This document shows, piece after piece, positions 6,604 through 47,916 of a stretch of DNA of 64,000 nt. The notes under the pieces were generated by a model, which saw nothing but the letters and a program-made list of their open reading frames with translations, ran no database searches and was not told the origin of the DNA. Both the position numbers and the translations under genes were made by a program. Source of the DNA: a virus. Position 1 is the first letter of the stretch. Each line of letters starts with the position of its first letter. The stretch is taken from positions 206,630-270,629 of the IMG/VR virus record IMGVR_UViG_3300017917_003822. The stretch is one strand, 5' to 3'.

Positions 6604-7683
6604 ATGAAATACGACATAAACATATTAAATAGCTATATTGATAATGGGCTGCTGGAAAAAAACCCACATCCAACATTACCTCTCGATATCTACAACTACT
6701 CCCGGGAGTGCCAATTTTCACGTCATTGGGATGAGATAACCCTCAACATGAGGGGCACAGTCTTAGACAGAGATGGAAATGTAGTAGCAAGAACATTTTC
6801 AAAATTCTTCAATCTGGAAGAACATCAACCCGAAGAAATTCCAAATGAATCATTTGACGTTTTTGAAAAAATGGATGGTTCACTGGGTATTTTATTTAAT
6901 TACAACGATCAGTGGATATTTGCAACTAAGGGATCATTCTCGTCAGATCAATCAATCAGAGGTAAGGAAATTTTGGAGAAGTACGACTATCAAAGTCTAG
7001 CGAAAGATTGCACATATTTATTCGAGATCATATATCCAGAAAATAGAATTGTCGTCAGCTACGATTTCGAAGATCTAGTACTATTAGCAATCATCAATAA
7101 CGAGGATGGCTATGAATATGACATACACTCGGAGGAGGCGCTTTCTGATGTACTGGATATCAAGGGTTTTAGAATTGTTAAAAAATACCATGGAGTTCAG
7201 GACTATAAGGAGCTTAAGAAAATCATAGATAACAATGCAGAGGGATTCGTCATCAGATTCAAATCTGGTTTCAGAATGAAGATCAAAGGGGAAGAGTATG
7301 TTAGACTCCATCGGCTTCTAACAAACTTCTCGAACATTGACATCTGGGAACTTTTGAAGAATGGGGAGGATCTTGGTAATTTTCTGGACAGAGTTCCTGA
7401 TGAATTTGATCTCTGGGTCAAGAATATTATCTCAGATCTAAGAAGACAGTACCTGGTAATCGAGGAATCAGCACATGAGGTCCATTCATCATTCTTTGTT
7501 GCGAGACCAGATTTTTCGAGAGAAGCGGGAAAGAAAGAATATGCTCTGTGGGTTAAAGAACAAGAAAAGAATTTGCAAGGTATATTATTTTGTCTGTATG
7601 ACGAGAAAAGGTATTCGGATCACATTTGGAAAATGATAAGACCGAAATACCAAAAACCATTTTGGAACAAAATTGAGGATTGA
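6604..7683 (+). CDS. rnlA: ATP-dependent RNA ligase, T4 RnlA (Rnl1) family
   Basis: MRGTVLDRDGNVVARTFSKFFNLEE and FEKMDGSLGILF...ATKGSFSSDQ align with T4 Rnl1 (ECRGIMFEMDGE...EKFFNLNE; TKEDGSL...SKGSIKSEQ). Motif I is KxDGS, motif IV is EGFVIR. Confidence 0.8.
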   Translation: MKYDINILNSYIDNGLLEKNPHPTLPLDIYNYSRECQFSRHWDEITLNMRGTVLDRDGNVVARTFSKFFNLEEHQPEEIPNESFDVFEKMDGSLGILFNYNDQWIFATKGSFSSDQSIRGKEILEKYDYQSLAKDCTYLFEIIYPENRIVVSYDFEDLVLLAIINNEDGYEYDIHSEEALSDVLDIKGFRIVKKYHGVQDYKELKKIIDNNAEGFVIRFKSGFRMKIKGEEYVRLHRLLTNFSNIDIWELLKNGEDLGNFLDRVPDEFDLWVKNIISDLRRQYLVIEESAHEVHSSFFVARPDFSREAGKKEYALWVKEQEKNLQGILFCLYDEKRYSDHIWKMIRPKYQKPFWNKIED

Positions 7684-8326
7684 TATGAAAATTATATTAG
7701 AAAAAAACCAGAATTTATATTTCACGAGTGATACACACTATAATCACTCCAATATTTGCCGGGGAACGTCAAATTGGCCAGGCGGAAGAGGAACCCGAAA
7801 TTTCCATTCACTTGGAGAGATGAACGATGCCATAGTCTCTGGGATCAATTCTATTGTAGGTCCTGACGATTATCTTGTTCATATGGGAGATTGGAGCTTT
7901 GGTGGATTTGAATCTATCATAGAATTCAGAAAAAGAATAGCATGTAAGAACATTATTCTTTTCCTCGGGAATCACGATCATCATATCAGAAACAATAAGG
8001 AAGGTGTTCAAGGATACTTTAGAAAAGTTTCAAGCTACGATGTACTGGATATTAGAAGACCGGAAGGAAAGGAAACTGCTAAATATCAATTTGTATGTTG
8101 TCACTTTCCCATAGCAAGTTGGGACGGCATGAACAAGAAGGTTCCACATCTACATGGTCACGTTCACTTGCCTCCAAATTTAAAAATTCACGAGGGGAGA
8201 GCAATGGACGTTGGAGTAGATGGAAACAATCTACAACCCTACAGCTTAAATGAAATATTAAAGATCATGAAGGATCGTCCAATTAAACATTTGACTTTAC
8301 CAAAAGACCATCACACAGAGGAATAG
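7673..8326 (+). CDS. calcineurin-like metallophosphoesterase (candidate RNA-end healing phosphatase)
   Basis: SDTHYNH, HMGDWSFGG and GNHDHH are metallophosphoesterase motifs. Position between ligase and kinase. Confidence 0.65.
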   Translation: MRIDMKIILEKNQNLYFTSDTHYNHSNICRGTSNWPGGRGTRNFHSLGEMNDAIVSGINSIVGPDDYLVHMGDWSFGGFESIIEFRKRIACKNIILFLGNHDHHIRNNKEGVQGYFRKVSSYDVLDIRRPEGKETAKYQFVCCHFPIASWDGMNKKVPHLHGHVHLPPNLKIHEGRAMDVGVDGNNLQPYSLNEILKIMKDRPIKHLTLPKDHHTEE

Positions 8327-8470
8327 TATGGAAGTAAATGTGGCACAAAGGAGGTTTTGTATCTGGAGATTAGAATTGTGGTGGATCGCTTTTGATTTGC
8401 ACCAATTTCATCCGGAAGGTAGGGTTCATTTAAGAGGTAACTGGTTCTGGAGAATATAAAAACAAGAGAA

Positions 8471-8644
8471 ATGATAACACAAGAAATTTTAAACACTTTT
8501 GTCTTCGATACAATCGGGGGAGAAAAATTTGGGGTCAATGATCCAATAGCTCATGATGAGATTATTGGATACTATCCATCGAGAGAGGAAGCAGAAAAAG
8601 CTTTCATTGAGTACGTAGAAAAAGAAGGTATAATATTCGAATAA
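8471..8644 (+). CDS. small hypothetical protein (57 aa, below ORF-track cutoff)
   Basis: ATG at 8471. Stop overlaps the next start (TAATG). MITQEILNTFVFDTIGGEKFG... Confidence 0.25.
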   Translation: MITQEILNTFVFDTIGGEKFGVNDPIAHDEIIGYYPSREEAEKAFIEYVEKEGIIFE

Positions 8645-9090
8645 TGGAAAATTCAAGAACTGGATACAGTATAATTAAACCAACCATGTTTCTCATAAGA
8701 GGAATCCCAGGATCTGGTAAATCGACATTTGCAAATCACATCTGGAACGAGTATGCAATCTGCGAAGCAGACAAATACTTCATAGACAAGGAAACTGGTG
8801 AATATAAATTTGATGCCTCTAAGCTGAAGGATGCGCATGAATGGTGCAGAAATGAAGTTGAGAACAGAATGAAAGAACATCATCTTAATCCACAGTACTA
8901 TCCTGAAATAGCAGTGTCCAATACATTCACCCAAGAATGGGAAATGCAAAATTATCTGGATCTTGCTGATAAGTATGGTTATCAGGTTGTTTCTTTGATA
9001 GTGGAGAACCGACACGGAGGATCGAACGTTCACAACGTTCCGGAAGAAACCTTGGATAGAATGAGACAAAGATTTGAAATTAAACTATAA
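8644..9090 (+). CDS. P-loop polynucleotide 5'-kinase-like protein (T4 Pnk kinase-domain-like)
   Basis: Walker A GIPGSGKST. Overall pattern resembles the T4 Pnk kinase domain (ISDTNL...; ...DRMRQRF). Confidence 0.6.
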   Translation: MENSRTGYSIIKPTMFLIRGIPGSGKSTFANHIWNEYAICEADKYFIDKETGEYKFDASKLKDAHEWCRNEVENRMKEHHLNPQYYPEIAVSNTFTQEWEMQNYLDLADKYGYQVVSLIVENRHGGSNVHNVPEETLDRMRQRFEIKL

Positions 9091-9096
9091 CAACCA

Positions 9097-9843: not shown

Positions 9844-9849
9844 TAAGGA

Positions 9850-10233
9850 ATGACAACATCTCTTATCATCAGAGGCGAAGTTTTGGGAGCATATGATCTT
9901 ACTTTTGAAGAATTTAAGACATCGGAGCTCAGAACAGTTTTTTTCGAGGAGATCGAAAGAACAATCAGCATGATATATCAGAGATACGCTTTTGAACCAA
10001 GAAGTCCAAAAGTTTTAGCAAAGATACTCGAGGATTCGAGGGAGATTCTATTTCCAGGTAAACCCAATGTTAGATTAACATTTAGCAAGGACGTAAATAA
10101 AGGAAGACTCGATTTGAATGTCATCATGAACTCGATGAAAATAGTAATCAGGAAGCAAGAGCTTTCCATAGTTGAATATCTGATCCACTTGGCAGCAATT
10201 AAGTGTGGCATCGCTTTTATAAAAATAAAATAA
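9850..10233 (+). CDS. hypothetical protein
   Basis: 127-aa ORF. Confidence 0.35.
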   Translation: MTTSLIIRGEVLGAYDLTFEEFKTSELRTVFFEEIERTISMIYQRYAFEPRSPKVLAKILEDSREILFPGKPNVRLTFSKDVNKGRLDLNVIMNSMKIVIRKQELSIVEYLIHLAAIKCGIAFIKIK

Positions 10234-10238
10234 TAAAC

Positions 10239-10649
10239 ATGGAATATAATTTATTTCTAGACGACTTCAGGCACCCATATGATTGTGTGCCATATATGCC
10301 GAATCGTGAAATTTACGCGAAATGGAAATGGGAGATAGTTAGAAACTATGACGAGTTTGTCGAGTATATTACGAAAAATGGTCTTCCTACTCACGTCTCA
10401 TTCGATCACGATCTTGCTGATGAGCATTATGACGATAGCATGTATGGAGGTCAGGCAGACTATGATAGGATGTATCAGGAATTCAAGGAAAAGACTGGAC
10501 TTGACTGTGCAAAATGGTTAGTTGATTACTGTATGGACAACAACCAGAAGCTTCCTGAATATTCTGTTCACTCGATGAATCCTGCTGGTGGAAAAAACAT
10601 TCTGGAGTACCTTAACAACTTTAAAAAATTTCAGGAAGATGGAAAATAA
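10239..10649 (+). CDS. hypothetical protein with conserved SFDHDL motif
   Basis: Track start 10203 is GTG. First ATG at 10239 gives MEYNLFLDDFRHP... Confidence 0.4.
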   Translation: MEYNLFLDDFRHPYDCVPYMPNREIYAKWKWEIVRNYDEFVEYITKNGLPTHVSFDHDLADEHYDDSMYGGQADYDRMYQEFKEKTGLDCAKWLVDYCMDNNQKLPEYSVHSMNPAGGKNILEYLNNFKKFQEDGK

Positions 10650-11060: not shown

Positions 11061-11729
11061 ATGAACAACTCAGCAGAATTTAGAAAATACGCTTTAAGTC
11101 AGGGTATAAGCTCGCTAACACTGGACTATCACGATAAACAAATCCAGGCATCAATGACTCCGATGATCCTTGAGGAAAGGGAAATGAGAGTCACCCAGAT
11201 GACTGTTTTTGATAGATTGATGATGGATAGAATCCTTTGGGTAGCTGGTCCGGTTAACGATAGAATGTCAACCATAGTTCAGGCTCAACTTATGTTCCTT
11301 GATTCCGTTGATGATAGGGATATTACTATGCACATTGACTCCCCCGGTGGGTCTGTTAAATCTGGTCTGAGTATGGTTGATGTTATGTCGTATATTAAAT
11401 CGGATATCCGAACAGTTAACACAGGGATGGCAGCTTCGATGGGATCAATTTTACTTGGAGCAGGAACTAAAGGAAAAAGATCGTCGTTAAGATTTAGTAA
11501 AGTTATGTTGCACCAATCCAGCGGTGGATTTAGTGGAAACATCCAGGATGCAGAAATCGACATGATAGAATGGAAAAAATACAATGAGATCCTGTTTGAG
11601 TTATTGGGTGAATATTGTGACAAACCAGCAGAACAAGTAATGCAAGATGCGACTAGGGATTTTTGGTTGAGTGCAGATGATGCTGTTGCTTATGGCATTA
11701 TCGACGAGGTAATCAGATCTAAAAAATAA
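11061..11729 (+). CDS. clpP: ClpP-family serine protease (candidate prohead protease)
   Basis: Catalytic triad context is GMAASMGS (Ser), MLHQ (His), DATRDFWLSA (Asp). Overall ClpP alignment: DSPGGSV..., GAGTKGKR. Confidence 0.85.
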   Translation: MNNSAEFRKYALSQGISSLTLDYHDKQIQASMTPMILEEREMRVTQMTVFDRLMMDRILWVAGPVNDRMSTIVQAQLMFLDSVDDRDITMHIDSPGGSVKSGLSMVDVMSYIKSDIRTVNTGMAASMGSILLGAGTKGKRSSLRFSKVMLHQSSGGFSGNIQDAEIDMIEWKKYNEILFELLGEYCDKPAEQVMQDATRDFWLSADDAVAYGIIDEVIRSKK

Positions 11730-16417: not shown

Positions 16418-17560
16418 ATGGAAAGAAAATTAGCAAGTATACAGAAAATAGGAAAAGTTCTGCCTATAGAGGGAGCAGATGCAATCGAGATGGTAATGGT
16501 TAACTCGTGGAAGGTCGTTTCTAAGAAGGATGAATTCAAGGAAGGTGACTATTGCGTTTATTTTGAAATTGATTCATTTCTTCCAATTAGAGAGGAATTT
16601 GAGTTCTTGAGAAAATCCTCCTATAGAAAGATGGGGGATCTTGAGGGATTCAGACTAAAAACCATAAAACTTAGAGGACAGGTTAGTCAGGGGCTTTGTT
16701 TACCAATCTCCATATTGGAGGGAGATGGTGAAATGAAAATTGGAATCAGCAAGCAACCTTGGGGAGATCAATTACAGCTTGGTCCTTATGACGATGCTCT
16801 TGTTATTCAAGAAGGAGTTGATGTCACAGAACATTTGGGAGTTGTTAAATTTGAACCACCTATACCGGCTGAACTTGCAGGAAAGGTTAAAGGAAATTTC
16901 CCTGGTTTCATCAGAAAAACAGACGAGGAAAGAATCCAGAATATGACGAAGCAATTTGAGGAGATGAAGTCACATCAATACTACATCACGGAAAAACTTG
17001 ACGGTAGTTCAGCAACTTACTATTTTAGAGACGGGGTTTTCGGTGTCTGTTCAAGAAACCTTGAGTTAGCGGATCCTGGAGAATTTGTACCTGGTACTAT
17101 CATTGGTGAAGATGGTGTCGAAAGACCCAAAAAAGAAAATACATTCTGGAAGGTTGCTAGAGAGCTAAAGATAGCAGAAAAACTAGGATCTCTTAATCAA
17201 AATTACGCAATCCAGGGGGAGCTTATTGGGGAAGGAGTGCAAGGAAATCCTTACAAGATCAAAGGACACACACTTAGAATATTTAATGTATTCAATATCG
17301 ATCAACAGGAGTATCTGGGACTTGATGAAATGAGGGATTTTCTTTCGAAGGTTAATGTTGACGATTCACCATTGGAATTGGTTCCTGTCATTGATGAAAA
17401 CTACAAGCTGCATGGAACCATCGAGGAAATTCTACAATATGCTGAGGGTAAATCAGTTCTTCATAATGAGGCCGAGAGAGAAGGAATTGTTATCAGAAAC
17501 AAAGACAAGAGCATCTCATTCAAGGCTATTTCTAATAAATTCTTGCTAAAGGAAAAATAG
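16418..17560 (+). CDS. second ATP-dependent RNA ligase (Rnl5/DraRnl-like: N-terminal OB-like domain + KxDG nucleotidyltransferase)
   Basis: Motif I ITEKLDGSS, motif IV EGIVIRNK, motif V KAISNKF. N-terminal ASIQKIGKVLPIEGADAIEMV...WKVVSKKDEFKEGDYCVYFEIDSFLP. Confidence 0.55.
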   Translation: MERKLASIQKIGKVLPIEGADAIEMVMVNSWKVVSKKDEFKEGDYCVYFEIDSFLPIREEFEFLRKSSYRKMGDLEGFRLKTIKLRGQVSQGLCLPISILEGDGEMKIGISKQPWGDQLQLGPYDDALVIQEGVDVTEHLGVVKFEPPIPAELAGKVKGNFPGFIRKTDEERIQNMTKQFEEMKSHQYYITEKLDGSSATYYFRDGVFGVCSRNLELADPGEFVPGTIIGEDGVERPKKENTFWKVARELKIAEKLGSLNQNYAIQGELIGEGVQGNPYKIKGHTLRIFNVFNIDQQEYLGLDEMRDFLSKVNVDDSPLELVPVIDENYKLHGTIEEILQYAEGKSVLHNEAEREGIVIRNKDKSISFKAISNKFLLKEK

Positions 17561-17901: not shown

Positions 17902-18936
17902 ATGAAAATAATTATCACAGGAGGTGCGGGTTATATTGGATCCCACACTGCAGTAGAAGCACTAAGAGCAGGTCATGAAGTTATCATTATAGATTCCTTC
18001 ATCAATTCATCGAGAGATGTACTTAAAAACATAGAAAAAGCATCAGGCAAGCCTTTTGTAGCTATCGATGTATGTATGACTCAGAATACGCTAGATATTG
18101 CGGAGAAGCTTTTTGGTTTTGCACATAACACCGATGCAATTATTCACTTTGCTGCATTAAAGGATTCCCCAGGATCAACAGAAAACCCGCTGGGATATTA
18201 TAGAAACAATATAGACTCATTGCTTAGTGCGCTGGGGGTTTCTAAATTACTTAAAATCAAGAACTTCATATTCTCCAGTTCTGCGACGGTTTATGGTTAT
18301 CCCGAGTATCTACCGATCAAAGAAACACACCCAATTCTAAGAGGAACTACACCATACGGGACTTCAAAAATAATGGGAGAATGGATTCTAGAGGATGTAA
18401 CCAGAGGTAACGATATGAGGTCCGTTGCACTGAGGTATTTTAATCCGGCTGGTGCAGATCACACTGGACTTATTGGGGAAATGCCAATAGGTAGAGCAAC
18501 AAACCTTGTACCTATTATAACACAATCAGCCGCTGGAATATATGGTCCGTTAAAAATAACTGGTACTGATTATTCAACTCCAGATGGCTCTGCGATTAGA
18601 GACTACATCCACGTGACGGACTTAGCAAAGGCGCACTTAGCGGCTCTAGATTGGATGGTTGACCACGAAATGAAGTTCTTTGAGACTTTTAATCTGGGTA
18701 CGGGTAGAGGAACATCGGTAATTGAAATGGCTGAATTGTTCGACAAGGAGATTGCCCCGGGCTTATTAAAAACAGAGTTTGCTGATAGAAGACCAGGAGA
18801 TCCGGCCGAAGTTTGGTGTGATTCATCAAAGGCACAAAGAATTCTTGGATGGAGATCTGAATTAGACAACTTGGATATTTTGAGAAGTGCCTGGGAGTGG
18901 CAGAAGAACATTGCAACTGAGAATTCGGATATATAA
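17902..18936 (+). CDS. galE: UDP-glucose 4-epimerase (NAD-dependent epimerase/dehydratase)
   Basis: GGAGYIGSH Rossmann motif, catalytic YGTSK, length 344 aa. Confidence 0.85.
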   Translation: MKIIITGGAGYIGSHTAVEALRAGHEVIIIDSFINSSRDVLKNIEKASGKPFVAIDVCMTQNTLDIAEKLFGFAHNTDAIIHFAALKDSPGSTENPLGYYRNNIDSLLSALGVSKLLKIKNFIFSSSATVYGYPEYLPIKETHPILRGTTPYGTSKIMGEWILEDVTRGNDMRSVALRYFNPAGADHTGLIGEMPIGRATNLVPIITQSAAGIYGPLKITGTDYSTPDGSAIRDYIHVTDLAKAHLAALDWMVDHEMKFFETFNLGTGRGTSVIEMAELFDKEIAPGLLKTEFADRRPGDPAEVWCDSSKAQRILGWRSELDNLDILRSAWEWQKNIATENSDI

Positions 18937-20078: not shown

Positions 20079-20522
20079 ATGATGACTAGATCAAAAACAA
20101 AAAAGCAACCGGAAAAAAGAAGTGACGAGATTACCGATCTGGAGGTTGCTAGAAAAATGTTAAAAATATACCAGAGCGCACAGGACAGAAAGCTTGACTT
20201 TGATCTTGGCTTTGAGTCGGTTAAAAAATTATTGTCATACCCAACTTGTTACTATACTGGAAGAAGATTTGAAGAGGAAGGTTCGTTTTCCAGAAGTTTC
20301 GATAGAGTTGATTCATCCAAGGGATACGTCGAGGGAAATGTTGTTGCATGCACTGTTGACATTAACGGGAAAAAGAGCAATTTATCGGTGGAGGAAATAG
20401 AATGTCTGTACATTAAATTGGTTAAGCCTCAATCGTTTAAAATGGAGGAGTCCAAAAAAATAGAAATGGAGGTAAATTTCCAGGAAATAAATAATCTGGA
20501 GGGGAACCAGGAGGATATATAA
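20079..20522 (+). CDS. HNH-family endonuclease-like protein
   Basis: CYYTG...SFDRVDSSKGYVEGNVVACTVDINGKKSN resembles phage HNH homing endonucleases (SIDRIDxxKGY...N). Confidence 0.4.
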   Translation: MMTRSKTKKQPEKRSDEITDLEVARKMLKIYQSAQDRKLDFDLGFESVKKLLSYPTCYYTGRRFEEEGSFSRSFDRVDSSKGYVEGNVVACTVDINGKKSNLSVEEIECLYIKLVKPQSFKMEESKKIEMEVNFQEINNLEGNQEDI

Positions 20523-21797: not shown

Positions 21798-22085
21798 ATG
21801 GATCATCTTTCAAAATACTTATCTTCGCCAAAACCGGAGGAAATAGTAGTCCAGTCCAGATATTCATATGTTGATCAATTACATTTGGAGAATAGTAATG
21901 TGGATATCGAGAGTGCACTTAAGAACGATATAGCTAGAAAAATGGTTGATATTTTAATCGAGAGGAATCTGATTGAATTTAAAATGATTAACACAACAAA
22001 TCCATACGAAGCTTCAGTTACGATTTCAGGTAAAATAAAAGTCCAACCTCCGTATTTAGAATTTAAACTTTCAGGAATGATATGA
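21798..22085 (+). CDS. hypothetical protein
   Basis: Track start 21777 is TTG inside the -7 box. ATG at 21798 gives MDHLSKY... Confidence 0.35.
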   Translation: MDHLSKYLSSPKPEEIVVQSRYSYVDQLHLENSNVDIESALKNDIARKMVDILIERNLIEFKMINTTNPYEASVTISGKIKVQPPYLEFKLSGMI

Positions 22086-22525
22086 TCAAGAAATCTGTAA
22101 ATATAGTTAATAAAAAGGCAAAATTTGAGTTCGAGTTCATCAGGGTTTTAGATGCTGGAATTCAGCTAACCGGATCCGAGGTCAAATCAATTAGGGATTC
22201 AAAAGTGGATTTTACAGATTCATATTGCTATTTTGTAAATAATGAGTTATTCATTAAGAATTTACACATTTCGTCCAATGACTATCGTTATTCACACGAT
22301 CCCAAAAGAGAAAGAAAACTACTTCTTAAAAGGAGAGAACTAGATAAGCTACAGAAGGATCTCGTTAAAAATATGAGCATAGTTCCATATAGAATTCACG
22401 AAAACGGAAAATCTCTACTAAAAATAGAAATAGCTTTGGGTAGAGGAAAAAAACTTTATGATAAAAGAGAAACTATCAAAAGTAGGGACATCGAAAGAGA
22501 AACACAAAAACAACTTAAGGGATAA
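22082..22525 (+). CDS. smpB: SsrA-binding protein SmpB homolog
   Basis: NKKAKFEFEFIRVLDAGIQLTGSEVKSIRDSKVDFTDSY, HDPKRERKLLLKRRELDKL and GRGKKLYDKRETIK align closely with bacterial SmpB. Confidence 0.85.
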   Translation: MIKKSVNIVNKKAKFEFEFIRVLDAGIQLTGSEVKSIRDSKVDFTDSYCYFVNNELFIKNLHISSNDYRYSHDPKRERKLLLKRRELDKLQKDLVKNMSIVPYRIHENGKSLLKIEIALGRGKKLYDKRETIKSRDIERETQKQLKG

Positions 22526-22541
22526 TCAAAATTTATTTATC

Positions 22542-23093
22542 ATGGAAAAGAAAATCAACTTCGTCATCAGCAAAGAAGATAAGATTCGTTGGATCATAGA
22601 AAAACACGTTCAGACAAATCACCAATATTCAGAATATTTACCGTACGAGTTTCATTTAAGAATGGTAGCTCAGGTTGCTAAAGACTTCGACTACCTTATA
22701 CCATCCGAAGAAATGAGGGAGTCGATATTGATAGCTGCATACGGTCACGATCTTATCGAGGATACCAGAGTTTCCTATAATGATGTTAAATCTATCCTCG
22801 GCGTAACTGTGGCTGATATTATCTATGCATTAACCAATGAGAAGGGTAAAAATAGAAAGGAGAGAGCAAATTCTAAATATTATGAGGGCATCTTAGAAAC
22901 TCCAGGTGCAGTTTTTGTTAAACTCTGCGATCGTATTGCCAATGTTCAGTATTCTAAAATGACCAAAAGCAGAATGTTCGAAATGTACAAGAAGGAGAAT
23001 CCAGAATTTCTAACCAGTCTGGGATTTCCTAAGGGACAAAGTCACCCATTGGAGCCAATGAGTAAATATTTGTTAAATTTATTTGAGGATTAA
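22542..23093 (+). CDS. HD-domain hydrolase resembling small alarmone (p)ppGpp hydrolases (Mesh1/SpoT-HD-like)
   Basis: AAYGHDLIEDT...LGVTVADIIYALTNEKG...VFVKLCDRIANV fits the RelA/SpoT HD pattern (HDxxED...LADRLHN). ATG at 22542; the track extension overlaps smpB. Confidence 0.5.
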   Translation: MEKKINFVISKEDKIRWIIEKHVQTNHQYSEYLPYEFHLRMVAQVAKDFDYLIPSEEMRESILIAAYGHDLIEDTRVSYNDVKSILGVTVADIIYALTNEKGKNRKERANSKYYEGILETPGAVFVKLCDRIANVQYSKMTKSRMFEMYKKENPEFLTSLGFPKGQSHPLEPMSKYLLNLFED

Positions 23094-24508: not shown

Positions 24509-25009
24509 ATGAAATTTAACTATATAGAAGGGGATTTAATCAAGTTAGCTAAAGAGGGTAAATTTGATGTCATCACACACGGATGCAACTGTTTATCCAC
24601 AATGGGAGCCGGAATTGCACCACAAATGGCAAAAGCTTTCGGGTGCGACAAATTTGAGATGGAGTTAATCGGACCAGATATCAATAAACTGGGAAACATC
24701 GACTACCAAACCATGGTTTTAGGTGAGAATGCAGTTTGGTCACTGGAGGATTTTAAAAATAATAGAAATGAACCTGAATTGATTGTTATTAATTCATACA
24801 CTCAATATCACTACGGAGGTCAAAAACCTCTAGATTATGAGGCATTGACATTGTGTCTCCGTAAAATCAATCATCAATTCAAAGGAAAGCATATCGGATT
24901 ACCAAAGATTGGAGCTGGATTGGCAGGAGGAAACTGGAATCGAATAGAGCACATCATACAAACGGAATTAAAAGACATGGAGGTGTCAGTGGTAATCTAT
25001 AAAGGATAA
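24509..25009 (+). CDS. Macro domain protein (ADP-ribose binding/processing)
   Basis: GDLIKL...DVITHGCNCLSTMGAGIA and IGLPKIGAGLAGGNW resemble macro-domain motifs (GDIT..DAIVNAAN..GGGV; AFPAISTG). Confidence 0.5.
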   Translation: MKFNYIEGDLIKLAKEGKFDVITHGCNCLSTMGAGIAPQMAKAFGCDKFEMELIGPDINKLGNIDYQTMVLGENAVWSLEDFKNNRNEPELIVINSYTQYHYGGQKPLDYEALTLCLRKINHQFKGKHIGLPKIGAGLAGGNWNRIEHIIQTELKDMEVSVVIYKG

Positions 25010-26285: not shown

Positions 26286-26364
26286 AACTTTTTCGGAGTA
26301 CTGATCTATAATAACAATTAACCAGCATCCAACCCAACGGAAGGTTGCACAATACCATATAATT

Positions 26365-27138
26365 ATGAAAGACGCACTAGGCGACAGAATGAAAGAGTTC
26401 TATGAGGATAGAACTAGAATCAAACTCCCAAGGAGAACCTACACAATTATCCGCATCGACGGAAAAGCATTTCACACTTACACAAAAGGATTAGAAAGAC
26501 CGTTTGACGAAGGTCTAATTGAAGACATGAACGGCACGACTGCATACCTGTGCAAGAATATACAGGGTGCTAAATTCGGTTACGTCCAATCCGATGAGAT
26601 CTCACTAGTATTAACAGATTTTGATGATCTAAGTACACACGCATGGTTTGATAACAATCTTCAAAAGATGGCTTCTGTTGCAGCATCGATGGCCACATCT
26701 GAATTTAATCGATTGAGATTGATGAGAGATTCAAAGAACGGAGCACTTGATATTCGAGAGCTAAACCTTTTTAAAATGGCACAGTTTGATGCTAGAGTGT
26801 TTCAAATTCCATTTATCGATGAAGTTGAAAACTACTTCATCTGGAGACAACAGGATGCAGTAAGGAATAGTATATCATCAGTTGCACAAAGCCTATACAG
26901 TCCAAAGCAACTACACGGGGTTAAGACTGATCAGATGCAGGAGATGATCTTTCAAAAAGGAATTAATTGGAACGACTATGATTTCCGTCTGAAAAGAGGT
27001 GCAGTTATCGGGAAGGTCCCAGTTGAGCTAACCAGCGGGGACGTAACTTACACAAGGAATAGATGGATGGTAATAGACACTCCAACATTTACTCAGGATA
27101 GAGAATTCATTAAAAATCTTTTAAAAATAGAAAAATGA
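26365..27138 (+). CDS. Thg1-like protein (tRNA-His guanylyltransferase family, 3'-5' nucleotidyltransferase)
   Basis: TIIRIDGKAFHTY, YVQSDEISLVL and FDARVFQIP...IWRQQDAVRNS align with the Thg1 N-terminal catalytic core (VVRLDGRNFHRF; YGQSDEYSFVF; FDGRVVVYP...SWRQADCHINN). Confidence 0.8.
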   Translation: MKDALGDRMKEFYEDRTRIKLPRRTYTIIRIDGKAFHTYTKGLERPFDEGLIEDMNGTTAYLCKNIQGAKFGYVQSDEISLVLTDFDDLSTHAWFDNNLQKMASVAASMATSEFNRLRLMRDSKNGALDIRELNLFKMAQFDARVFQIPFIDEVENYFIWRQQDAVRNSISSVAQSLYSPKQLHGVKTDQMQEMIFQKGINWNDYDFRLKRGAVIGKVPVELTSGDVTYTRNRWMVIDTPTFTQDREFIKNLLKIEK

Positions 27139-30667: not shown

Positions 30668-31153
30668 ATGAATAAAGAAAATCAACCATGGCTAAGAGCC
30701 AGCATTAAAATAACAAAACCAATAGTTCTAATTGATATGGACGGGGTTATTTGTGATTTTGATAAGAGAGCTAAAGAACTGGAGGCACAAGGTATTAAAG
30801 GTCACAGTCTTTTCAAACATCCGAGTGCATACAGAGCTTTAGAACCCATAGAAGGAGCGGTTGATGCATGGCACGATTTACAGGATAAGTACGAGACCTA
30901 TATTTTAAGTACTCCACCTTGGAGTAATCCTGATGCTTGGTCAGAAAAAAGAATCTGGGTTCAGCAGTATCTAGGTGACAGTGCTAAGAAAAAACTGATC
31001 CTATGTCACAACAAAGGTCTAGTTATCGGTGATTATCTTATCGATGATCGAATTGCCAACGGTGTAGCTGATTTCAAGGGGGAACACATTCACTTTGGAA
31101 CAGATAAGTTTCCTGGATGGGAAAGTGTACTTGAGTATCTTAAATCTAAATAA
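30668..31153 (+). CDS. 5'(3')-deoxyribonucleotidase (NT5C-family HAD phosphatase)
   Basis: VLIDMDGVICDF (DxDG HAD motif I) and LIDDR align with cytosolic 5'(3')-deoxyribonucleotidase. Confidence 0.7.
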   Translation: MNKENQPWLRASIKITKPIVLIDMDGVICDFDKRAKELEAQGIKGHSLFKHPSAYRALEPIEGAVDAWHDLQDKYETYILSTPPWSNPDAWSEKRIWVQQYLGDSAKKKLILCHNKGLVIGDYLIDDRIANGVADFKGEHIHFGTDKFPGWESVLEYLKSK

Positions 31154-31452: not shown

Positions 31453-32196
31453 ATGTTTAAATTTTACGAAGTAGGTGGAAAAGTTAGAGATGAGATTTTA
31501 GGTCTAGAATCTAAGGACGTTGATTATGTTGCAGTTCCGAACGATGGGCTATTGGAAAAGAATCATGACGCTTATGAGATGTTTGTCATTCTCGAAACCT
31601 ATCTGCACAATCAGAATTTTGAAATTTTTCTAACAACACCAGAATGCTTTACGATCAGAGCAAAATTCCCGAAGGATCATAAATATCAAGGGGTTGCTGA
31701 TTTCGTGATGGCAAGGAAAGAGGTTGGATACATTCAGGGTACAAGAACTCCGATCATTAAACCTGGAACACTATATGATGATCTTGAAAGAAGAGACTTT
31801 ACTCTTAATGCACTAGCAAGAGATGAAGACGGTCAAATTATTGATTATTTCAATGGTTTAAACGATCTAAATGAGAAAAAGCTTGTAACCCCTCTGGAAG
31901 CAAAAACAACGATGCTAGACGATCCCTTAAGGCTTCTAAGAGCTTTCAGATTTTCAATCACCAAGGGATTTGAGATATCACCGGACATTATGAATACCTG
32001 CACGAGCAACGAGGTTATAGATAAGTTGGAGACTGTTGTTTCTCAGGAAAGAATCCGGGAGGAGATTTTTAAAATGACGAAGCATGACACATTAGGTACG
32101 TTGGAACTATTCGAGAGAATAAGAGTTCTAAACCCAAGAATTTTGAAAATTATATTCAGTAACGGTATGTGGCTAAAACCAACAAACGAGAAATAA
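31453..32196 (+). CDS. class II nucleotidyltransferase, CCA-adding enzyme / poly(A) polymerase head-domain type
   Basis: N-terminal YEVGGKVRDEILGLESKDVDYV matches the GG.VRD..LG...D.D head-domain signature. Confidence 0.55.
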   Translation: MFKFYEVGGKVRDEILGLESKDVDYVAVPNDGLLEKNHDAYEMFVILETYLHNQNFEIFLTTPECFTIRAKFPKDHKYQGVADFVMARKEVGYIQGTRTPIIKPGTLYDDLERRDFTLNALARDEDGQIIDYFNGLNDLNEKKLVTPLEAKTTMLDDPLRLLRAFRFSITKGFEISPDIMNTCTSNEVIDKLETVVSQERIREEIFKMTKHDTLGTLELFERIRVLNPRILKIIFSNGMWLKPTNEK

Positions 32197-35796: not shown

Positions 35797-37239
35797 ATGA
35801 CAACTATTTTATCTTTGGTATCTTACATAGTACCTGCAATTATCGGAATCTTTATTTTAATTTATATTCTCTCATTAAGGAGAATTGTACCAACCAATGT
35901 GGTTCACATCGTTCAAAGAGGAAACCAAACTGTTTCATACGGAACAAATAAACAATCAAATGTTTATTATGAATGGCCAAGCTGGCTACCTAAATTAGGG
36001 GTAACTGTTCGTGTTCTTCCTGTATCTAACTTCGATATTGATTTGAAACGTTATGAAGCTTATGATAAAGATCGTGTACCATTTGTCGTCGACGTTAAAG
36101 CTTTCTTCCATATTTCGAATACAAACATTGCAGCTGAAAAGGTTGAATCTTTCGAAGAACTTAGAGGCCAATTAGAAAATGTAGTTCAAGGTGCGGTTCG
36201 TTCAATCTTAGCTAAATCTAAATTGGAAGAGATCATGGAGGAACGTTCAGTCTTTGGTAAACAATTTACCGACGCAGTCAACACAGATTTACAAAACTGG
36301 GGTGTTGAAGCAATAAAAAGTATTGAATTAATGGACGTAAGAGACGCTGACGGATCTCACGTAATCCAACAGATCATGGCAAAACGTATGTCAGCAATCG
36401 ACATGGAATCAAGAACTGAAGTTGCTAAAAACCAGAAACTTGCGAAACAGGCAGAGCTTGAAGCCAAAAAAGAGATTGATGTAACTACGGCGGAGACTGA
36501 GAGAATTGCCGGAGAAGCACAAGCACAATCTCAACAAGCAATCGGTATCGCCAAAGCAGAATCGATGAAGAAAACTGGTATTGCCGAACAAGAGTCAATT
36601 TCAGAAATTGCCAGAGCCGAAAGAGCCACTGCAGAACAGCAAATGGAGGTTGTTAAGGTCAACCAGGTAAAACAAGCAGAGATCGACAGAGAGCGTGAAA
36701 TTATTACTGCCGAACAGGAAAAACAAAAAATGGAAATCCAGGCACAGGCTGATAAATTTAGAATTGAAACCGAAGCTGCTGCTCAATTAGAAGCAAAAAG
36801 AAAAGAGGCTGAGGCTGTTAAAACCGTCGGATCCGCAGAAGCAGAGGTTATTAAGGCTAAGGGTATTTCAGAGGCTGAATCTAAAAAGGCAATGGAATTG
36901 GCAGGGGTAACTGCACAAACAACACTGGCGAAAGAAATTGGTGAGAACAAGCCTTATCAAGAGTACTTAATTAAAGTTAAGGAAGTTGAAGTTAGTCAAG
37001 TTGTTGGAGTTGCTCAGTATGAGTCTATGGCAAAAGCATTATCAGCAGCTGACTTAAAGCTATTAGTTAACAGTGGAGATGTTCATTCTGGAATTGGTAA
37101 GTTATCTGACTTATTTACATCAAAGGGTGCATCTCAGATTAACGGGTTACTTGAAGGTCTAAAACAAACCGACGAGGGCAAGAATTTATTAGAGATGCTG
37201 AACGGCTTAACTTCGTCTAAGGTTACTAAATCTGAATAA
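35797..37239 (+). CDS. SPFH/band-7 (flotillin-like) domain protein with long coiled-coil
   Basis: N-terminal TM, then an SPFH-like region (VVHIVQRGNQ...VPFVVDVKAFFHISN...). A long E/A/K/Q-rich heptad region follows. Confidence 0.65.
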   Translation: MTTILSLVSYIVPAIIGIFILIYILSLRRIVPTNVVHIVQRGNQTVSYGTNKQSNVYYEWPSWLPKLGVTVRVLPVSNFDIDLKRYEAYDKDRVPFVVDVKAFFHISNTNIAAEKVESFEELRGQLENVVQGAVRSILAKSKLEEIMEERSVFGKQFTDAVNTDLQNWGVEAIKSIELMDVRDADGSHVIQQIMAKRMSAIDMESRTEVAKNQKLAKQAELEAKKEIDVTTAETERIAGEAQAQSQQAIGIAKAESMKKTGIAEQESISEIARAERATAEQQMEVVKVNQVKQAEIDREREIITAEQEKQKMEIQAQADKFRIETEAAAQLEAKRKEAEAVKTVGSAEAEVIKAKGISEAESKKAMELAGVTAQTTLAKEIGENKPYQEYLIKVKEVEVSQVVGVAQYESMAKALSAADLKLLVNSGDVHSGIGKLSDLFTSKGASQINGLLEGLKQTDEGKNLLEMLNGLTSSKVTKSE

Positions 37240-40033: not shown

Positions 40034-41242
40034 ATGTCAATCTGGTTTTGTTTACTTATACCCGTAGTGGGTGCTTTAGTTATGCTAAAGTGGTTCAGAA
40101 AAAATCTTGCCTGGTGGGAGGTTATTGTTCCCGCTGTTGTTTGTTTTTTATTCATACTAATCTTTAAACTGACGGTTGAAAGAATCCAGGTTAATGATAC
40201 TGAATATCACGGAGCAATCATAACGGAGGCAAGATATTATGAGTATTGGGAAACTTATGTTCATAAAACATGCACAAGGACAGTTAGCTGTGGTAAGAAT
40301 TGCACGACCACGGTTAGCTACGATTGTTCATATTGTGACGAGACACCGAAACGTTGGACCGTTGTTAATTCATTGGGTGAGGAATTTAGAGTATCGGAAG
40401 AATATTATAAATATCTGACTAAAAAATGGAAAGCAACACCAAAATTTGTTGAACTTAATAGAGATATTGATTATACTGGTGGTTGTGGACAGGACGGAGA
40501 TATGTACGTCATTAAATGGAATGTTGATCCGATGACTGCTGAATCAACCACAACTGATCACTGGTACGAAAATAGAATACAGGCAGCACACACCGCATTC
40601 GATTTCGTTGATGTTACTGAAGAAGATGTCAAAAAATACTCTCTCTACGATTATCCCGACGTAAATGGATTCCACCAGGAAACTGTTCTTGGAATGGATA
40701 AAGCCAAATGGATCACCAAGATCCAAACTAACCGAATGAAACAATGGGGTAAATTTCTAAATGGTCATCTGGGAGTAAAGAAACATGCCCGCATCTATTT
40801 TCTTTTCTTTGTTGATAAATCAATGTTAGCTGCAAATATGCAGGAGGCTTATTGGGACGGAGGAAATGATAACGAGCTAGTTGTTTGCATTGGACTTAGC
40901 AGTAAATCCAAGGAGATTCAATGGGTTAAACCTTTCTCATGGTCACCAACGGGAAGAATAGTTCCTGATGTTCGTGAGGGTATAATGAAAAATCCAGATT
41001 TTAATGTTGATCAAATAGCAAAAACCGTTTGGAGTACTGTCGATAAAGAATATGTTAGAAGAGACTTCGAGGAATTTTCATATGTAACGGTTGAACCTCC
41101 TACATGGGCTATTTGGGTAACATTCTTTATAACTTTGGCAATAACAATTGGAATTTGTTATTGGGCAGTTGTTAATGATATAGATGGGGGCAACGATCCG
41201 ATATTCGGAAAAACAAATCGCTATGGAGGATATAGATATTAA
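40034..41242 (+). CDS. large cysteine-rich membrane protein
   Basis: 402 aa. N-terminal and C-terminal hydrophobic helices. Many Cys. Confidence 0.45.
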   Translation: MSIWFCLLIPVVGALVMLKWFRKNLAWWEVIVPAVVCFLFILIFKLTVERIQVNDTEYHGAIITEARYYEYWETYVHKTCTRTVSCGKNCTTTVSYDCSYCDETPKRWTVVNSLGEEFRVSEEYYKYLTKKWKATPKFVELNRDIDYTGGCGQDGDMYVIKWNVDPMTAESTTTDHWYENRIQAAHTAFDFVDVTEEDVKKYSLYDYPDVNGFHQETVLGMDKAKWITKIQTNRMKQWGKFLNGHLGVKKHARIYFLFFVDKSMLAANMQEAYWDGGNDNELVVCIGLSSKSKEIQWVKPFSWSPTGRIVPDVREGIMKNPDFNVDQIAKTVWSTVDKEYVRRDFEEFSYVTVEPPTWAIWVTFFITLAITIGICYWAVVNDIDGGNDPIFGKTNRYGGYRY

Positions 41243-42170: not shown

Positions 42171-42203
42171 TTTTTTTTATTCCGATGCTTTTTTATACAT
42201 TTG
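42171..42203 (+). promoter_or_regulatory. promoter-like motif copy 10
   Basis: TTTTTTTT-ATTCCGAT-N9-TACATTTG. Divergent intergenic region. Confidence 0.4.
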
Positions 42204-42214
42204 TAAAAAAAATA

Positions 42215-47110: not shown

Positions 47111-47199
47111 GACTATGATGGAAGACTTTTTACTTATTTTCGCAATAATCTATACCTTAATGTATGGATTAAAAATTTGGGAGGAAAACAAATAATGAT

Positions 47200-47913: not shown

Positions 47914-47916
47914 TCT

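What the first reader, a model, noticed from the sequence alone, without database searches (positions are those of the whole stretch)
26365..27138. Phage-encoded Thg1-like 3'-5' nucleotidyltransferase
The N-terminal ~200 aa align motif by motif with the tRNA-His guanylyltransferase catalytic core: RIDGKAFH, YVQSDEISLV, FDARV...IWRQQDA. Bacterial and archaeal Thg1-like proteins repair tRNA 5' ends by templated 3'-5' addition. Together with the 3'-end (CCA) enzymes and the break-repair cassette, the element appears able to rebuild both tRNA termini. A Thg1 homolog in a phage is unusual.
Basis: partly seen in the sequence, partly recalled or inferred. Interest (0 to 1): 0.7.

Follow-up and report, generated by a model that had tools for sequence, protein, structure and literature searches.

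The report
Phage Thg1-like tRNA repair enzyme
A gene in an uncultured giant-phage genome encodes an intact Thg1-like "reverse" (3'-5') RNA polymerase that most likely rebuilds damaged tRNA 5' ends, but the same kind of gene is already annotated in well over a hundred phage genomes, so this is a sound but ordinary member of a known family.

Summary
ORF 26365-27138 (+, 257 aa) is a full-length Thg1-like protein (TLP): Pfam Thg1 E 3.9e-29, PHROG 4717 "tRNA-His guanylyltransferase" E 2e-87, and Bacillus thuringiensis TLP (PDB 4KGK) E 3.9e-62. An AlphaFold model matches only Thg1/TLP structures. All catalytic residues are present and are invariant in 80 viral homologues. The eukaryote-specific HINNLYN anticodon motif is absent, so the protein is a repair-type TLP rather than a dedicated G-1 enzyme. 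The gene is under purifying selection.

The window is part of a jumbo phage, syntenic with a 319-kb IMG/VR contig, and the host is probably in the Bacteroidota. It also carries two RNA ligases, a kinase, a phosphoesterase, a cREC domain, a CCA-type nucleotidyltransferase, SmpB and a macro domain.

The claim that a phage Thg1 is unusual is not supported. There are 164 phage GenBank records with homologues and a dedicated PHROG, and papers from 2010, 2013 and 2021 describe phage Thg1 and predict RNA repair. No phage TLP seems to have been tested biochemically.

Two side observations remain unexplained. A conserved leader is specific to the TLP gene. A large family of tRNA-like elements has constant acceptor and T arms and hypervariable cores, and sits directly upstream of the TLP gene in the closest relatives.

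The parts
26365..27138 (+). Thg1-like protein (TLP) gene, 257 aa. Palm/catalytic domain at about residues 7-149, C-terminal domain with a beta-hairpin at about 214-237.
   Evidence: ORF. Pfam Thg1 E 3.9e-29. PHROG 4717 E 2e-87. PDB 4kgk E 3.9e-62. Catalytic residues E14, R30, D32, S76, D77, E78, K101, R144, R161 and N168 are conserved. AF2 model and Foldseek. dN 0.10-0.19 against saturated dS.
26318..26364 (+). Conserved leader directly upstream of the TLP start codon. It includes a small hairpin, GCAUCC (26325-26330) paired with GGUUGC (26343-26348). Role unknown: 5'-UTR, operator or promoter-proximal element.
   Evidence: The motif ATCCRAC-N4-12-GGTTGCA occurs once in the window, with 0 expected. 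The leader is nearly invariant in 13 related loci although synonymous sites in the gene are saturated. No covariation was seen, and the folding z-score is -0.86.
24509..25009 (+). Context: macro-domain protein (DarG-like / Appr-1''-p-processing type), three genes upstream of the TLP gene.
   Evidence: PHROG 335 E 6e-46. Pfam Macro E 3e-4. DarG-like at 1e-9. Found within 10 kb of the TLP gene in 19 of 80 viral loci.
31453..32196 (+). Context: class II nucleotidyltransferase head domain (CCA-adding / poly(A) polymerase family), only 247 aa.
   Evidence: Pfam PolyA_pol E 1.6e-17. PDB CCA and poly(A) polymerases down to E 2.6e-24. NCBIfam CCA models hit but far below their cut-offs. Found within 10 kb of the TLP gene in 16 of 80 viral loci.
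6604..7683 (+). Context: T4 Rnl1-family RNA ligase.
   Evidence: Pfam RNA_lig_T4_1 E 8e-22. TIGR02308 E 2.6e-20, below its cut-off.
7673..8326 (+). Context: metallophosphoesterase, candidate 3'-end healing phosphatase.
   Evidence: Pfam Metallophos E 6.6e-7. PHROG 547 E 3.7e-43.
8644..9090 (+). Context: P-loop kinase (AAA_33), candidate polynucleotide 5'-kinase.
   Evidence: Walker A motif GIPGSGKS. Pfam AAA_33 E 4e-10 at 40.5 bits, cut-off 27.
10203..10649 (+). Context: cREC_REC cyclic-phosphate-processing receiver domain.
   Evidence: Pfam PF20274 E 4.8e-22.
16418..17560 (+). Context: DraRnl-type (DRB0094) ATP-dependent RNA ligase with an N-terminal OB domain.
   Evidence: Pfam PHA02142 OB E 1.3e-39 and RNA_ligase E 5.9e-28. 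TIGR02306 E 1.6e-55 at 188 bits, cut-off 151. Found next to the TLP gene in 7 of 80 viral and 7 of 51 genome loci.
22082..22525 (+). Context: SmpB (tmRNA-binding protein) homologue.
   Evidence: TIGR00086 E 4e-46, above its cut-off. Pfam SmpB E 6.7e-45.

Best explanation
The ORF encodes an active TLP-type member of the Thg1 family, a two-metal-ion 3'-5' RNA polymerase. The proposed mechanism has three steps. The enzyme activates a 5'-monophosphate RNA end with ATP or GTP, or it uses a 5'-triphosphate end directly. It then adds nucleotides to the 5' end of a truncated tRNA acceptor stem, one at a time, using the 3' acceptor strand as a Watson-Crick template. It stops once the stem is full length. 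The enzyme recognises the acceptor stem and the T-arm elbow, not the anticodon. In this jumbo phage it would act as one tool in a dispersed RNA-repair and tRNA-maintenance set (ligases, kinase, phosphoesterase, CCA-type nucleotidyltransferase, SmpB), keeping host and/or phage tRNAs usable during infection. What is shown: family membership, an intact active site, the fold, purifying selection, and the genomic association with tRNA genes and RNA-repair genes. What is inferred: the activity, the substrate and the biological purpose (counter-defence or quality control).
For: Sequence and structure place the protein in the Thg1/TLP family. The nearest solved relative is BtTLP, which prefers 5'-truncated tRNAs of any identity (PMC3061083 abstract).

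The equivalents of BtTLP D30/D75/E76, E12, R28, S74, K99, R131, R147 and N154 are all present: D32/D77/E78, E14, R30, S76, K101, R144, R161 and N168. They are invariant in 80 viral homologues and nearly so in 51 genome homologues (residue roles from PMC3701042).

The region that carries HINNLYN in eukaryotic Thg1 reads AVRNSISSVAQ here, like BtTLP's ASKNSISMVAQ (motif from PMC6471195).

The model has a C-terminal beta-hairpin at residues 214-237, and R231 is invariant. This matches the elbow-binding hairpin and conserved Arg of MaTLP (PMC4820378).

dN is 0.10-0.19 against saturated dS.

The TLP gene lies within 1 kb of tRNA genes in 11 of 80 viral loci, and inside large tRNA arrays in L035, L046 and L057.

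Macro-domain, CCA-type, HD and RNA-ligase genes recur within 10 kb of the TLP gene. Published comparative genomics made the same prediction.
Against: No phage TLP has been assayed, as far as the searched library shows. I know of no bacterial defence nuclease that trims tRNA 5' acceptor ends, so the physiological substrate is unknown.

In this window the TLP gene is 5-20 kb from the ligase/kinase cassette and is flanked by genes of unknown function. The toolkit is therefore a co-occurrence, not an operon.

The conserved activation-step lysine (BtTLP K43) is Arg here, as in 58 of 80 viral homologues. The effect is unknown. In BtTLP, K43A slows only ATP-dependent activation.

The Thg1C profile hit is below its threshold.
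Confidence: 0.7

Rival explanations
1. The protein is a dedicated tRNA-His guanylyltransferase, as the database name says. It would add or restore G-1 on host or phage tRNA-His, templated by C73, to secure histidylation.
For: The annotation in phage records and in PHROG 4717 says so. In L035 a tRNA-His gene starts 27 nt after the TLP stop codon, and 8 tRNA-His genes lie in TLP loci. TLPs can add G-1 opposite C73 (PMC4820378; PMC3061083).
Against: Seven of the eight tRNA-His genes beside TLP genes encode G at -1 with C73, as in bacteria, where RNase P retains G-1; the eighth, L050, was not resolved. The window has no tRNA-His gene. The HINNLYN anticodon-recognition motif is absent. The closest characterised enzyme, BtTLP, kinetically prefers truncated tRNAs of any identity.
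Confidence: 0.13
2. The main substrates are phage RNAs rather than damaged host tRNAs. Candidates are the family of tRNA-like elements with a constant acceptor/T-arm frame, or another RNA with a recessed 5' end such as the TLP gene's own conserved leader hairpin. The TLP would mature or maintain their 5' ends.
For: Elements of this family lie 80 nt upstream of the TLP gene in the two closest large relatives, L005 and L008. They lie 225 and 140 nt upstream in L011, L012 and L014, and five copies lie at 50.9-53.4 kb in the window. They conserve exactly the parts a TLP recognises, the acceptor stem and T-arm elbow. The leader is specific to the TLP gene. DdiTLP4 is reported to have a separate, non-redundant role.
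Against: Only 2 of 119 IMG/VR stretches carrying the element also carry a TLP gene, so there is no general linkage. The element acceptor stems are fully paired, so nothing needs repair. The leader hairpin shows no covariation and no significant stability.
Confidence: 0.12
3. The protein is not a 3'-5' polymerase in vivo. It would be an inactive relic, or a palm-domain enzyme with other chemistry, such as nucleotide-signal synthesis like its distant GGDEF/Cas10 relatives.
For: The Thg1 palm domain is related to GGDEF and CRISPR polymerase palms (PMC2904730). Weak Foldseek hits to Cas10 and GGDEF structures appear at E of about 0.01-0.07.
Against: Every residue tied to activation and nucleotidyl transfer in Thg1/TLP is conserved and invariant across the clade. 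The gene is under strong purifying selection. The protein is 45% identical to an enzyme with demonstrated repair activity. There is no match to defence-system models.
Confidence: 0.03

Closest known systems
Bacillus thuringiensis Thg1-like protein, BtTLP (PDB 4KGK/4KGM)
   Same: Best match by sequence (E 3.9e-62 over residues 3-253, about 45% identity) and by structure (TM 0.73/0.81). The same carboxylates and the same nucleotidyl-transfer and activation residues are present. The same AxxNSIS segment replaces HINNLYN.
   Different: The gene is viral, not cellular. The BtTLP K43 position is Arg (R45) and the M158 position is Ser (S172). There is an insertion of about 12 residues between helix 99-123 and strand 140-148 (query 118-135), and this region varies in length in the clade. 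Activity is untested.
Phage TLPs of PHROG 4717, e.g. Bacillus phage TsarBomba gp154, Bc431v3 gp143, Xanthomonas phage XacN1 ORF126
   Same: The same family, matched over its full length (PHROG E 2e-87), at 47-51% identity. All are carried by large phages with tRNA genes and are annotated as tRNA-His guanylyltransferase.
   Different: The query belongs to a separate, mostly uncultured aquatic clade whose members are 70-88% identical to it and lie on IMG/VR contigs of up to 430 kb. The neighbouring genes differ.
Methanosarcina acetivorans TLP (PDB 5AXK-5AXN)
   Same: The same fold, with a C-terminal beta-hairpin and a conserved Arg that binds the tRNA elbow. This gives the mechanistic model for anticodon-independent, length-measured repair.
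   Different: Sequence identity is only about 24%, and the protein is archaeal.
Eukaryotic Thg1 (yeast, Candida, human; PDB 5XOX, 3WBZ, 3OTB)
   Same: The same palm fold and the same two-metal site.
   Different: Identity is 20-24%. The query lacks HINNLYN and so lacks the anticodon-dependent, non-templated G-1 specialisation.
Dictyostelium TLP3 / mitochondrial tRNA 5'-editing
   Same: This is the only TLP role demonstrated in vivo: it refills 5'-truncated acceptor stems.
   Different: That system needs genomically encoded 5' mismatches. Only 5 of 176 tRNAs next to the phage and genome TLP genes have a non-pair at acceptor positions 1-3.

Membership tests
Thg1/TLP superfamily (Pfam PF04446) | Significant full-domain match to the Thg1 catalytic-domain profile, above the curated threshold | tested here: met
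   101.6 bits against a cut-off of 29.2, E 3.9e-29, profile positions 2-130 of 130.
Thg1/TLP superfamily (Pfam PF04446) | Three conserved carboxylates (hTHG1 D29/D76/E77, BtTLP D30/D75/E76) | tested here: met
   D32, D77 and E78 are present and invariant in 80 viral homologues. D77 and E78 are invariant in all 51 genome homologues. D32 is D in 49 of these and aligns to a gap in 2. Residue definitions come from PMC3701042.
Thg1/TLP superfamily (Pfam PF04446) | Nucleotidyl-transfer residues (BtTLP R28, K99, R131) and activation residues (S74, K43) | tested here: met
   R30, K101, R144 and S76 are conserved and invariant. The K43 position is R45, a conservative change shared by 58 of 80 viral and 31 of 51 genome homologues. 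Its effect is not known.
Thg1/TLP superfamily (Pfam PF04446) | Polymerase-like palm fold with the Thg1 C-terminal domain | tested here: met
   The AF2 model (pLDDT 79.7) has 32 significant Foldseek hits in the PDB, and all are Thg1/TLP chains. The Thg1C sequence profile alone is below its threshold, E 0.0082.
Thg1/TLP superfamily (Pfam PF04446) | 3'-5' nucleotide addition activity; tetrameric assembly | not testable with these tools
   Needs purified protein.
TLP subgroup (repair type), as opposed to eukaryotic Thg1 | Absence of the eukaryote-specific HINNLYN anticodon-recognition motif | tested here: met
   The query has AVRNSISSVAQ where Candida Thg1 has CHINNLYNTT and BtTLP has ASKNSISMVAQ. 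Motif from PMC6471195.
TLP subgroup (repair type), as opposed to eukaryotic Thg1 | Closer to characterised bacterial/archaeal TLPs than to Thg1 | tested here: met
   BtTLP gives E 3.9e-62, against 5e-12 to 1e-5 for eukaryotic Thg1.
TLP subgroup (repair type), as opposed to eukaryotic Thg1 | Flexible C-terminal beta-hairpin with a conserved Arg that binds the tRNA elbow | tested here: inconclusive
   The model has a hairpin at 214-237, and R231 is invariant in 41 sequences. Equivalence to MaTLP R215 was not established by structural superposition.
TLP subgroup (repair type), as opposed to eukaryotic Thg1 | Kinetic preference for 5'-truncated tRNAs, templated addition | not testable with these tools
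   Biochemical property (PMC3061083).
PHROG 4717 (phage tRNA-His guanylyltransferase family) | Full-length profile match | tested here: met
   E 2.1e-87, residues 1-254 against profile positions 1-240 of 250.
Mitochondrial-type tRNA 5'-editing system | Genomically encoded mismatches in the first three acceptor-stem pairs of the tRNAs served | tested here: not met
   Only 5 of 176 ARAGORN tRNAs in TLP loci have a non-pair at 1:72, 2:71 or 3:70. The window's tRNA-like elements are fully paired.
Operonic Thg1-PNK-macro-RNA ligase neighbourhood of bacteria (Anantharaman et al. 2010) | TLP gene adjacent to a polynucleotide kinase, macro-domain and/or RNA ligase gene | tested here: inconclusive
   The macro-domain gene is 3 genes upstream. 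The kinase and ligases are 9-19 kb away in the window. Across loci, a macro-domain gene is near the TLP gene in 19 of 80 viral loci and a ligase in 7 of 80 viral and 7 of 51 genome loci. Neighbourhood definition.

The most novel reading that the evidence does not exclude
The phage TLP may not be a general repair enzyme. It may instead work on the phage's own tRNA-like RNAs, together with the CCA-type nucleotidyltransferase. These RNAs form a large, apparently undescribed family with an invariant acceptor stem, a tRNA-Leu-like D arm and a T arm around a hypervariable core of 54-259 nt. The family sits immediately upstream of the TLP gene in the closest relatives and keeps exactly the acceptor/elbow surface that TLPs recognise. 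Alternatively, the TLP may counter a host defence, not yet described, that trims tRNA 5' ends. Either reading would give the first physiological role for a non-eukaryotic TLP.
Probability: 0.1. Interest if true: 0.65.

Novelty: new member of a known kind. Interest (0 to 1): 0.27.

Why it matters
The physiological role of bacterial, archaeal and viral TLPs is still open; only in vitro 5'-end repair has been shown. Phages that carry a TLP gene next to tRNA arrays, RNA ligases, kinases and CCA-type enzymes are a natural place to look for the in vivo substrate, and for a host activity that damages tRNA 5' ends. This particular gene adds a well-conserved, mostly uncultured viral clade. Its members are 70-88% identical to each other, while the nearest cellular genome reaches at most 62%. 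The gene also carries its own conserved leader. It does not change the picture: phage TLPs are already annotated, and their repair role has already been predicted. The protein could also be useful as a 3'-5' polymerase for RNA 5'-end engineering.

Tried and rejected
1. Nucleotide search of 20-34 kb against GenBank phages found no match, so no cultured close relative could be used for annotation.
2. NCBIfam has no model that hits the TLP, and PADLOC has none either.
3. The idea that the TLP serves a mitochondrial-type tRNA 5'-editing system was tested and rejected. Only 5 of 176 neighbouring tRNAs have a non-pair at acceptor positions 1-3.
4. The idea that the TLP supplies a missing G-1 was tested. 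Seven of the 8 tRNA-His genes in TLP loci encode G-1 and C73 and the eighth (L050) was not resolved, so the TLP is not required for this.
5. The idea that the tRNA-like element family is generally linked to the TLP gene was rejected. Only 2 of 119 element-bearing IMG/VR stretches encode a TLP.
6. The idea that the conserved leader is a structured RNA could not be supported. The hairpin is invariant, with no compensatory changes, and is no more stable than shuffled sequence (z -0.86).
7. The idea that the leader is a general phage promoter motif was rejected, because it occurs only once in the window.
8. The promoter and terminator scans around the gene were not above the shuffled expectation.
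9. The HD protein at 22458-23093 was first considered the HD half of a CCA enzyme, but it resembles SpoT/RelA-type HD hydrolases instead.
10. Literature searches found no biochemical study of a phage TLP.
Full report
**1. The observation**

An ORF runs from the ATG at 26365 to the stop at 27138 on the + strand and encodes 257 aa.

- **Sequence profiles.** The protein matches Pfam Thg1 (PF04446) over the whole profile at E 3.9e-29, 101.6 bits against a cut-off of 29.2. The C-terminal Thg1C profile is hit only weakly, E 0.0082.
- **Phage family.** PHROG 4717, annotated "tRNA-His guanylyltransferase", is matched end to end at E 2.1e-87.
- **Solved structures.** The best match is the Bacillus thuringiensis Thg1-like protein BtTLP (4KGK/4KGM), E 3.9e-62 over residues 3-253. 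Yeast, Candida, human and Methanosarcina enzymes follow at 5e-12 to 1e-5.
- **Predicted structure.** An AlphaFold2 model built on 41 homologues has pLDDT 79.7 and pTM 0.80. All 32 of its significant Foldseek hits in the PDB are Thg1/TLP chains. BtTLP is best at E 1e-19, TM 0.73/0.81.

**2. Is the enzyme intact, and which type is it?**

I used the BtTLP structure paper (PMC3701042) to define the functional residues, and an alignment of the query with BtTLP, 80 viral homologues and 51 genome homologues.

- The metal-binding aspartates (BtTLP D30, D75) are D32 and D77. The third carboxylate (E76) is E78.
- E12, R28, S74, K99, R131, R147 and N154 correspond to E14, R30, S76, K101, R144, R161 and N168.
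- All are invariant in the 80 viral sequences and essentially so in the genome set.
- The only change at a named residue is K43 to R45. Arg is the majority state in this clade, in 58 of 80 viral and 31 of 51 genome sequences. In BtTLP, K43A slows only ATP-dependent activation about ten-fold and leaves GTP-dependent activation untouched. This is a conservative variation, not a loss of function.
- Where eukaryotic Thg1 carries the HINNLYN anticodon-recognition motif (PMC6471195), the query has AVRNSISSVAQ, like BtTLP's ASKNSISMVAQ.
- The model has a C-terminal beta-hairpin at 214-237, and R231 is invariant. This is the counterpart of the elbow-binding hairpin of the Methanosarcina TLP, which measures acceptor-stem length (PMC4820378).
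- Against orthologues at 69-84% identity, dN is 0.10-0.19 while dS is saturated. The gene is therefore under purifying selection.

The protein is a full-length, catalytically intact TLP of the repair type.

**3. What carries it**

- **No cultured relative.** No GenBank phage matches the region at the nucleotide level.
- **Viral relatives.** The closest TLP relatives, at 70-88% identity, are all metagenomic. Those found in IMG/VR (up to 84% identity) lie on viral contigs, many of 120-430 kb.
- **Synteny.** One of these contigs, L018 from a 319-kb contig, shares 27 ORFs in the same order with window 13.5-39 kb.
- **Cellular relatives.** The best cellular genomes reach only 62% identity and are mostly Bacteroidota MAGs. 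Several of these carry phage-like tRNA arrays about 1.3-1.5 kb from the TLP gene.
- **Host.** The 402-aa protein at 40034-41242 has homologues almost only in Tenacibaculum jumbo phages and Prevotella Lak megaphages.

The window is therefore part of an uncultured jumbo phage. A Bacteroidota host is an inference.

**4. Context**

The immediate neighbours of the TLP gene have no assignable function, apart from a macro-domain protein three genes upstream at 24509-25009. That protein matches PHROG 335 at E 6e-46 and is weakly DarG-like.

Further away the window carries the following:

| Coordinates | Gene product |
|---|---|
| 6604-7683 | Rnl1-family RNA ligase |
| 7673-8326 | metallophosphoesterase |
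| 8644-9090 | AAA_33 P-loop kinase |
| 10203-10649 | cREC cyclic-phosphate-processing domain |
| 16418-17560 | DraRnl-type ligase, above the NCBIfam cut-off |
| 22082-22525 | SmpB |
| 22458-23093 | SpoT-like HD hydrolase |
| 31453-32196 | short CCA/poly(A)-polymerase-family nucleotidyltransferase |

They are dispersed over 25 kb rather than forming one unit with the TLP gene, and only one CCA-type enzyme was found.

Across the 80 viral loci, these genes lie within 10 kb of the TLP gene as follows:

- macro domain: 19 loci
- CCA type: 16 loci
- HD: 13 loci
- DraRnl-type ligase: 7 loci, plus 7 of the 51 genome loci

The TLP gene is within 1 kb of tRNA genes in 11 of 80 viral loci. It is embedded in arrays of 11-30 tRNAs in L035, L046 and L057. 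In XacN1 the gene is present in two places in the record. That phage's terminal repeats carry 56 tRNA genes (abstract shown).

**5. Mechanism**

The best-supported explanation is that the protein is a templated 3'-5' RNA polymerase that refills 5'-truncated acceptor stems.

1. It activates a 5'-monophosphate end with ATP or GTP, or uses a 5'-triphosphate end directly.
2. An incoming NTP base-pairs with the 3' acceptor strand, and its 3'-OH attacks the activated 5' end.
3. Addition stops when the stem is full length.

These steps are established for BtTLP and MaTLP and are inferred here from conservation. The biological purpose is also an inference. It could be keeping tRNAs functional against host nucleases, or quality control of the phage's own tRNAs. 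It has a gap: I know of no bacterial nuclease that trims tRNA 5' ends.

I tested two specific alternatives.

- **5'-editing of mismatched tRNAs, as in Dictyostelium mitochondria.** This is not supported. Only 5 of 176 tRNAs in TLP loci have a non-pair at acceptor positions 1-3.
- **Supplying a missing G-1 to tRNA-His.** This is not required. Seven of the 8 tRNA-His genes in TLP loci encode G-1 opposite C73, and the eighth (L050) was not resolved. Restoring a lost G-1 remains possible, because TLPs do this in vitro.

**6. Comparison with what is known, and novelty**

- tblastn finds them in 164 of 50,697 phage records, in phages of Bacillus, Prevotella, Caulobacter, Mycobacterium, Erwinia, Vibrio, Xanthomonas and others. 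Most of the listed records are already annotated as tRNA-His guanylyltransferase.
- A PHROG is dedicated to the family.
- At least 171 IMG/VR stretches encode close relatives of this one protein.
- More than 8000 database proteins match it at E of 1e-10 or lower.
- Anantharaman et al. 2010 included a phage Thg1. They predicted a tRNA repair and splicing role from PNK, macro-domain and RNA-ligase neighbourhoods.
- The Bc431v3 genome paper (2013) highlighted gp143.
- Iyer et al. 2021 listed Thg1 among jumbo-phage RNA-repair enzymes that restore 5' nucleotides.

I found no biochemical or genetic test of a phage TLP. The finding is a new member of a known kind. It is correct, well supported and of modest interest.

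**7. Things found on the way**

(a) *A conserved leader.* A stretch of about 47 nt directly upstream of the TLP start (26318-26364) is nearly invariant in 13 related loci. This holds whatever lies upstream and although synonymous sites in the gene are saturated. Its core motif occurs only once in the window. It contains a small hairpin without covariation or significant stability. Its role is unknown.

(b) *A family of tRNA-like elements.*
- The window holds five tRNA-like elements at 50895-53431. They share 5' AGUCAGG plus a tRNA-Leu-like D arm, and 3' CAGGUUCGAAUCCUG-U-CCUGACU-A. Their cores are completely different and the elements are 78-170 nt long. Only two pass the Rfam tRNA model, and their anticodon loops are 8-9 nt.
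- The same family sits 80 nt upstream of the TLP gene in L005 and L008, and 140-225 nt upstream in L011, L012 and L014.
- The exact 25-mer of the 3' frame occurs in at least 119 IMG/VR stretches.
- Of 194 copies, 176 have a fully complementary 5' strand and 171 are distinct, with lengths of 54-259 nt. ARAGORN leaves 152 copies uncalled and gives the rest scattered "anticodons".
- The family is not generally linked to TLP genes: only 2 of 119 stretches carry one. It does keep exactly the acceptor/elbow surface that TLPs, CCA enzymes and RNase P recognise.
- The elements could be processing punctuation, stable tRNA-like RNAs, or decoys. From my own knowledge, T4 species 1 and 2 RNAs are comparable stable tRNA-like RNAs. 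This deserves its own follow-up.

(c) *SmpB without a tmRNA.* The phage encodes SmpB, but no tmRNA was detected in the window.

**8. Verdict**

It is broadly right on context and wrong on rarity.
- Confidence that this is an active TLP-type 3'-5' polymerase working on tRNA or tRNA-like 5' ends is about 0.7. Confidence in family membership is much higher.
- Interest is 0.27.

Noticed in passing
window 50895-50982, 51336-51457, 52157-52326, 52487-52564, 53322-53431 (+ strand); also L005 9814-9918, L008 9797-9918, L011 5054-5153, 8257-8350 and 8416-8493: A family of tRNA-like elements. All share an invariant acceptor stem (AGUCAGG/CCUGACU, A73, no CCA), a tRNA-Leu-like D arm and a T arm. Their central parts are hypervariable and carry 8-9-nt 'anticodon' loops and large inserts. 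The exact 3' 25-mer is in at least 119 IMG/VR stretches. Of 194 copies, 176 have full acceptor pairing, 171 are distinct (54-259 nt), and ARAGORN leaves 152 uncalled. The family lies directly upstream of the TLP gene in the closest relatives but is not generally linked to TLP genes (2 of 119 stretches). Function unknown; I found no description of it.
   Followed up: partly
window 26318-26364: A leader of about 47 nt directly upstream of the TLP start codon. It is nearly invariant in 13 related loci although synonymous sites in the gene are saturated, and it is unique in the window. A TATAAT/TATAAATA-like box lies about 50 nt upstream of the ATG in the relatives. The small hairpin GCAUCC/GGUUGC shows no covariation.
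   Followed up: partly
window 22082-22525: A phage-encoded SmpB (tmRNA-binding protein), above the NCBIfam and Pfam cut-offs. Neither ARAGORN nor Rfam finds a tmRNA in the window.
   Followed up: partly
window 6604-10649: An RNA healing and sealing block: Rnl1-family ligase, metallophosphoesterase, AAA_33 P-loop kinase, two ORFs with no family match, and a cREC_REC cyclic-phosphate-processing domain.
   Followed up: partly
window 16418-17560: A second RNA ligase, of the Deinococcus DraRnl (DRB0094) type with an N-terminal OB domain. It scores 188 bits against a cut-off of 151. Its best phage relatives are cyanophages at about 40-44% identity. It lies next to the TLP gene in 7 viral and 7 genome loci.
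   Followed up: partly
L035 9184-11845, L046 656-10888, L057 1625-10942; genome loci L088, L090, L091, L093, L094 at about 8.0-9.3 kb: In several relatives the TLP gene sits inside or at the edge of large tRNA arrays of 11-30 genes. In L035 a tRNA-His gene follows the TLP gene by 27 nt. Seven of the 8 tRNA-His genes in TLP loci encode G-1 and C73; L050 was not resolved. The Bacteroidota MAG loci with such arrays may be phage or prophage DNA.
   Followed up: yes
window 26365-27138, residues 45 and 172: The activation-step lysine of BtTLP (K43) is Arg, and M158 is Ser. Both are the majority state in the viral clade (R in 58 of 80, S in 64 of 80), whereas M at the second position prevails in the cellular genome loci (32 of 51). 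This may bear on the choice between ATP and GTP in 5'-end activation.
   Followed up: partly
window 24509-25009: A macro-domain protein with weak similarity to the DarG antitoxin macro domain (E 1e-9 in NCBIfam and PADLOC) and to Bacteroides BT1257. It could counter ADP-ribosylating defence rather than serve RNA repair. It is found near the TLP gene in 19 of 80 viral loci.
   Followed up: partly
window 46520-48591 and 49496-50777: Two runs of three adjacent ORFs that each hit the same region of related loci at 30-43% identity, so they look like tandem paralogues. No family was assigned. The second run lies just upstream of the tRNA-like element cluster and co-occurs with those elements in 8-9 IMG/VR stretches.
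   Followed up: no
window 11061-11729, 17902-18936, 20079-20522, 30668-31153, 35797-37239, 42185-42973: Other auxiliary genes: ClpP protease, NAD-dependent sugar epimerase/dehydratase, an Srd/HNH-like protein, an NT5C-type 5'-nucleotidase, a 480-aa SPFH/Band-7 protein and an M28 peptidase.
   Followed up: no
window about 55700-64000: Gene orientation and GC skew flip to the minus strand after about 55.7 kb. The region includes an SLT lytic transglycosylase and an LRR protein, and may mark a module boundary.
   Followed up: no
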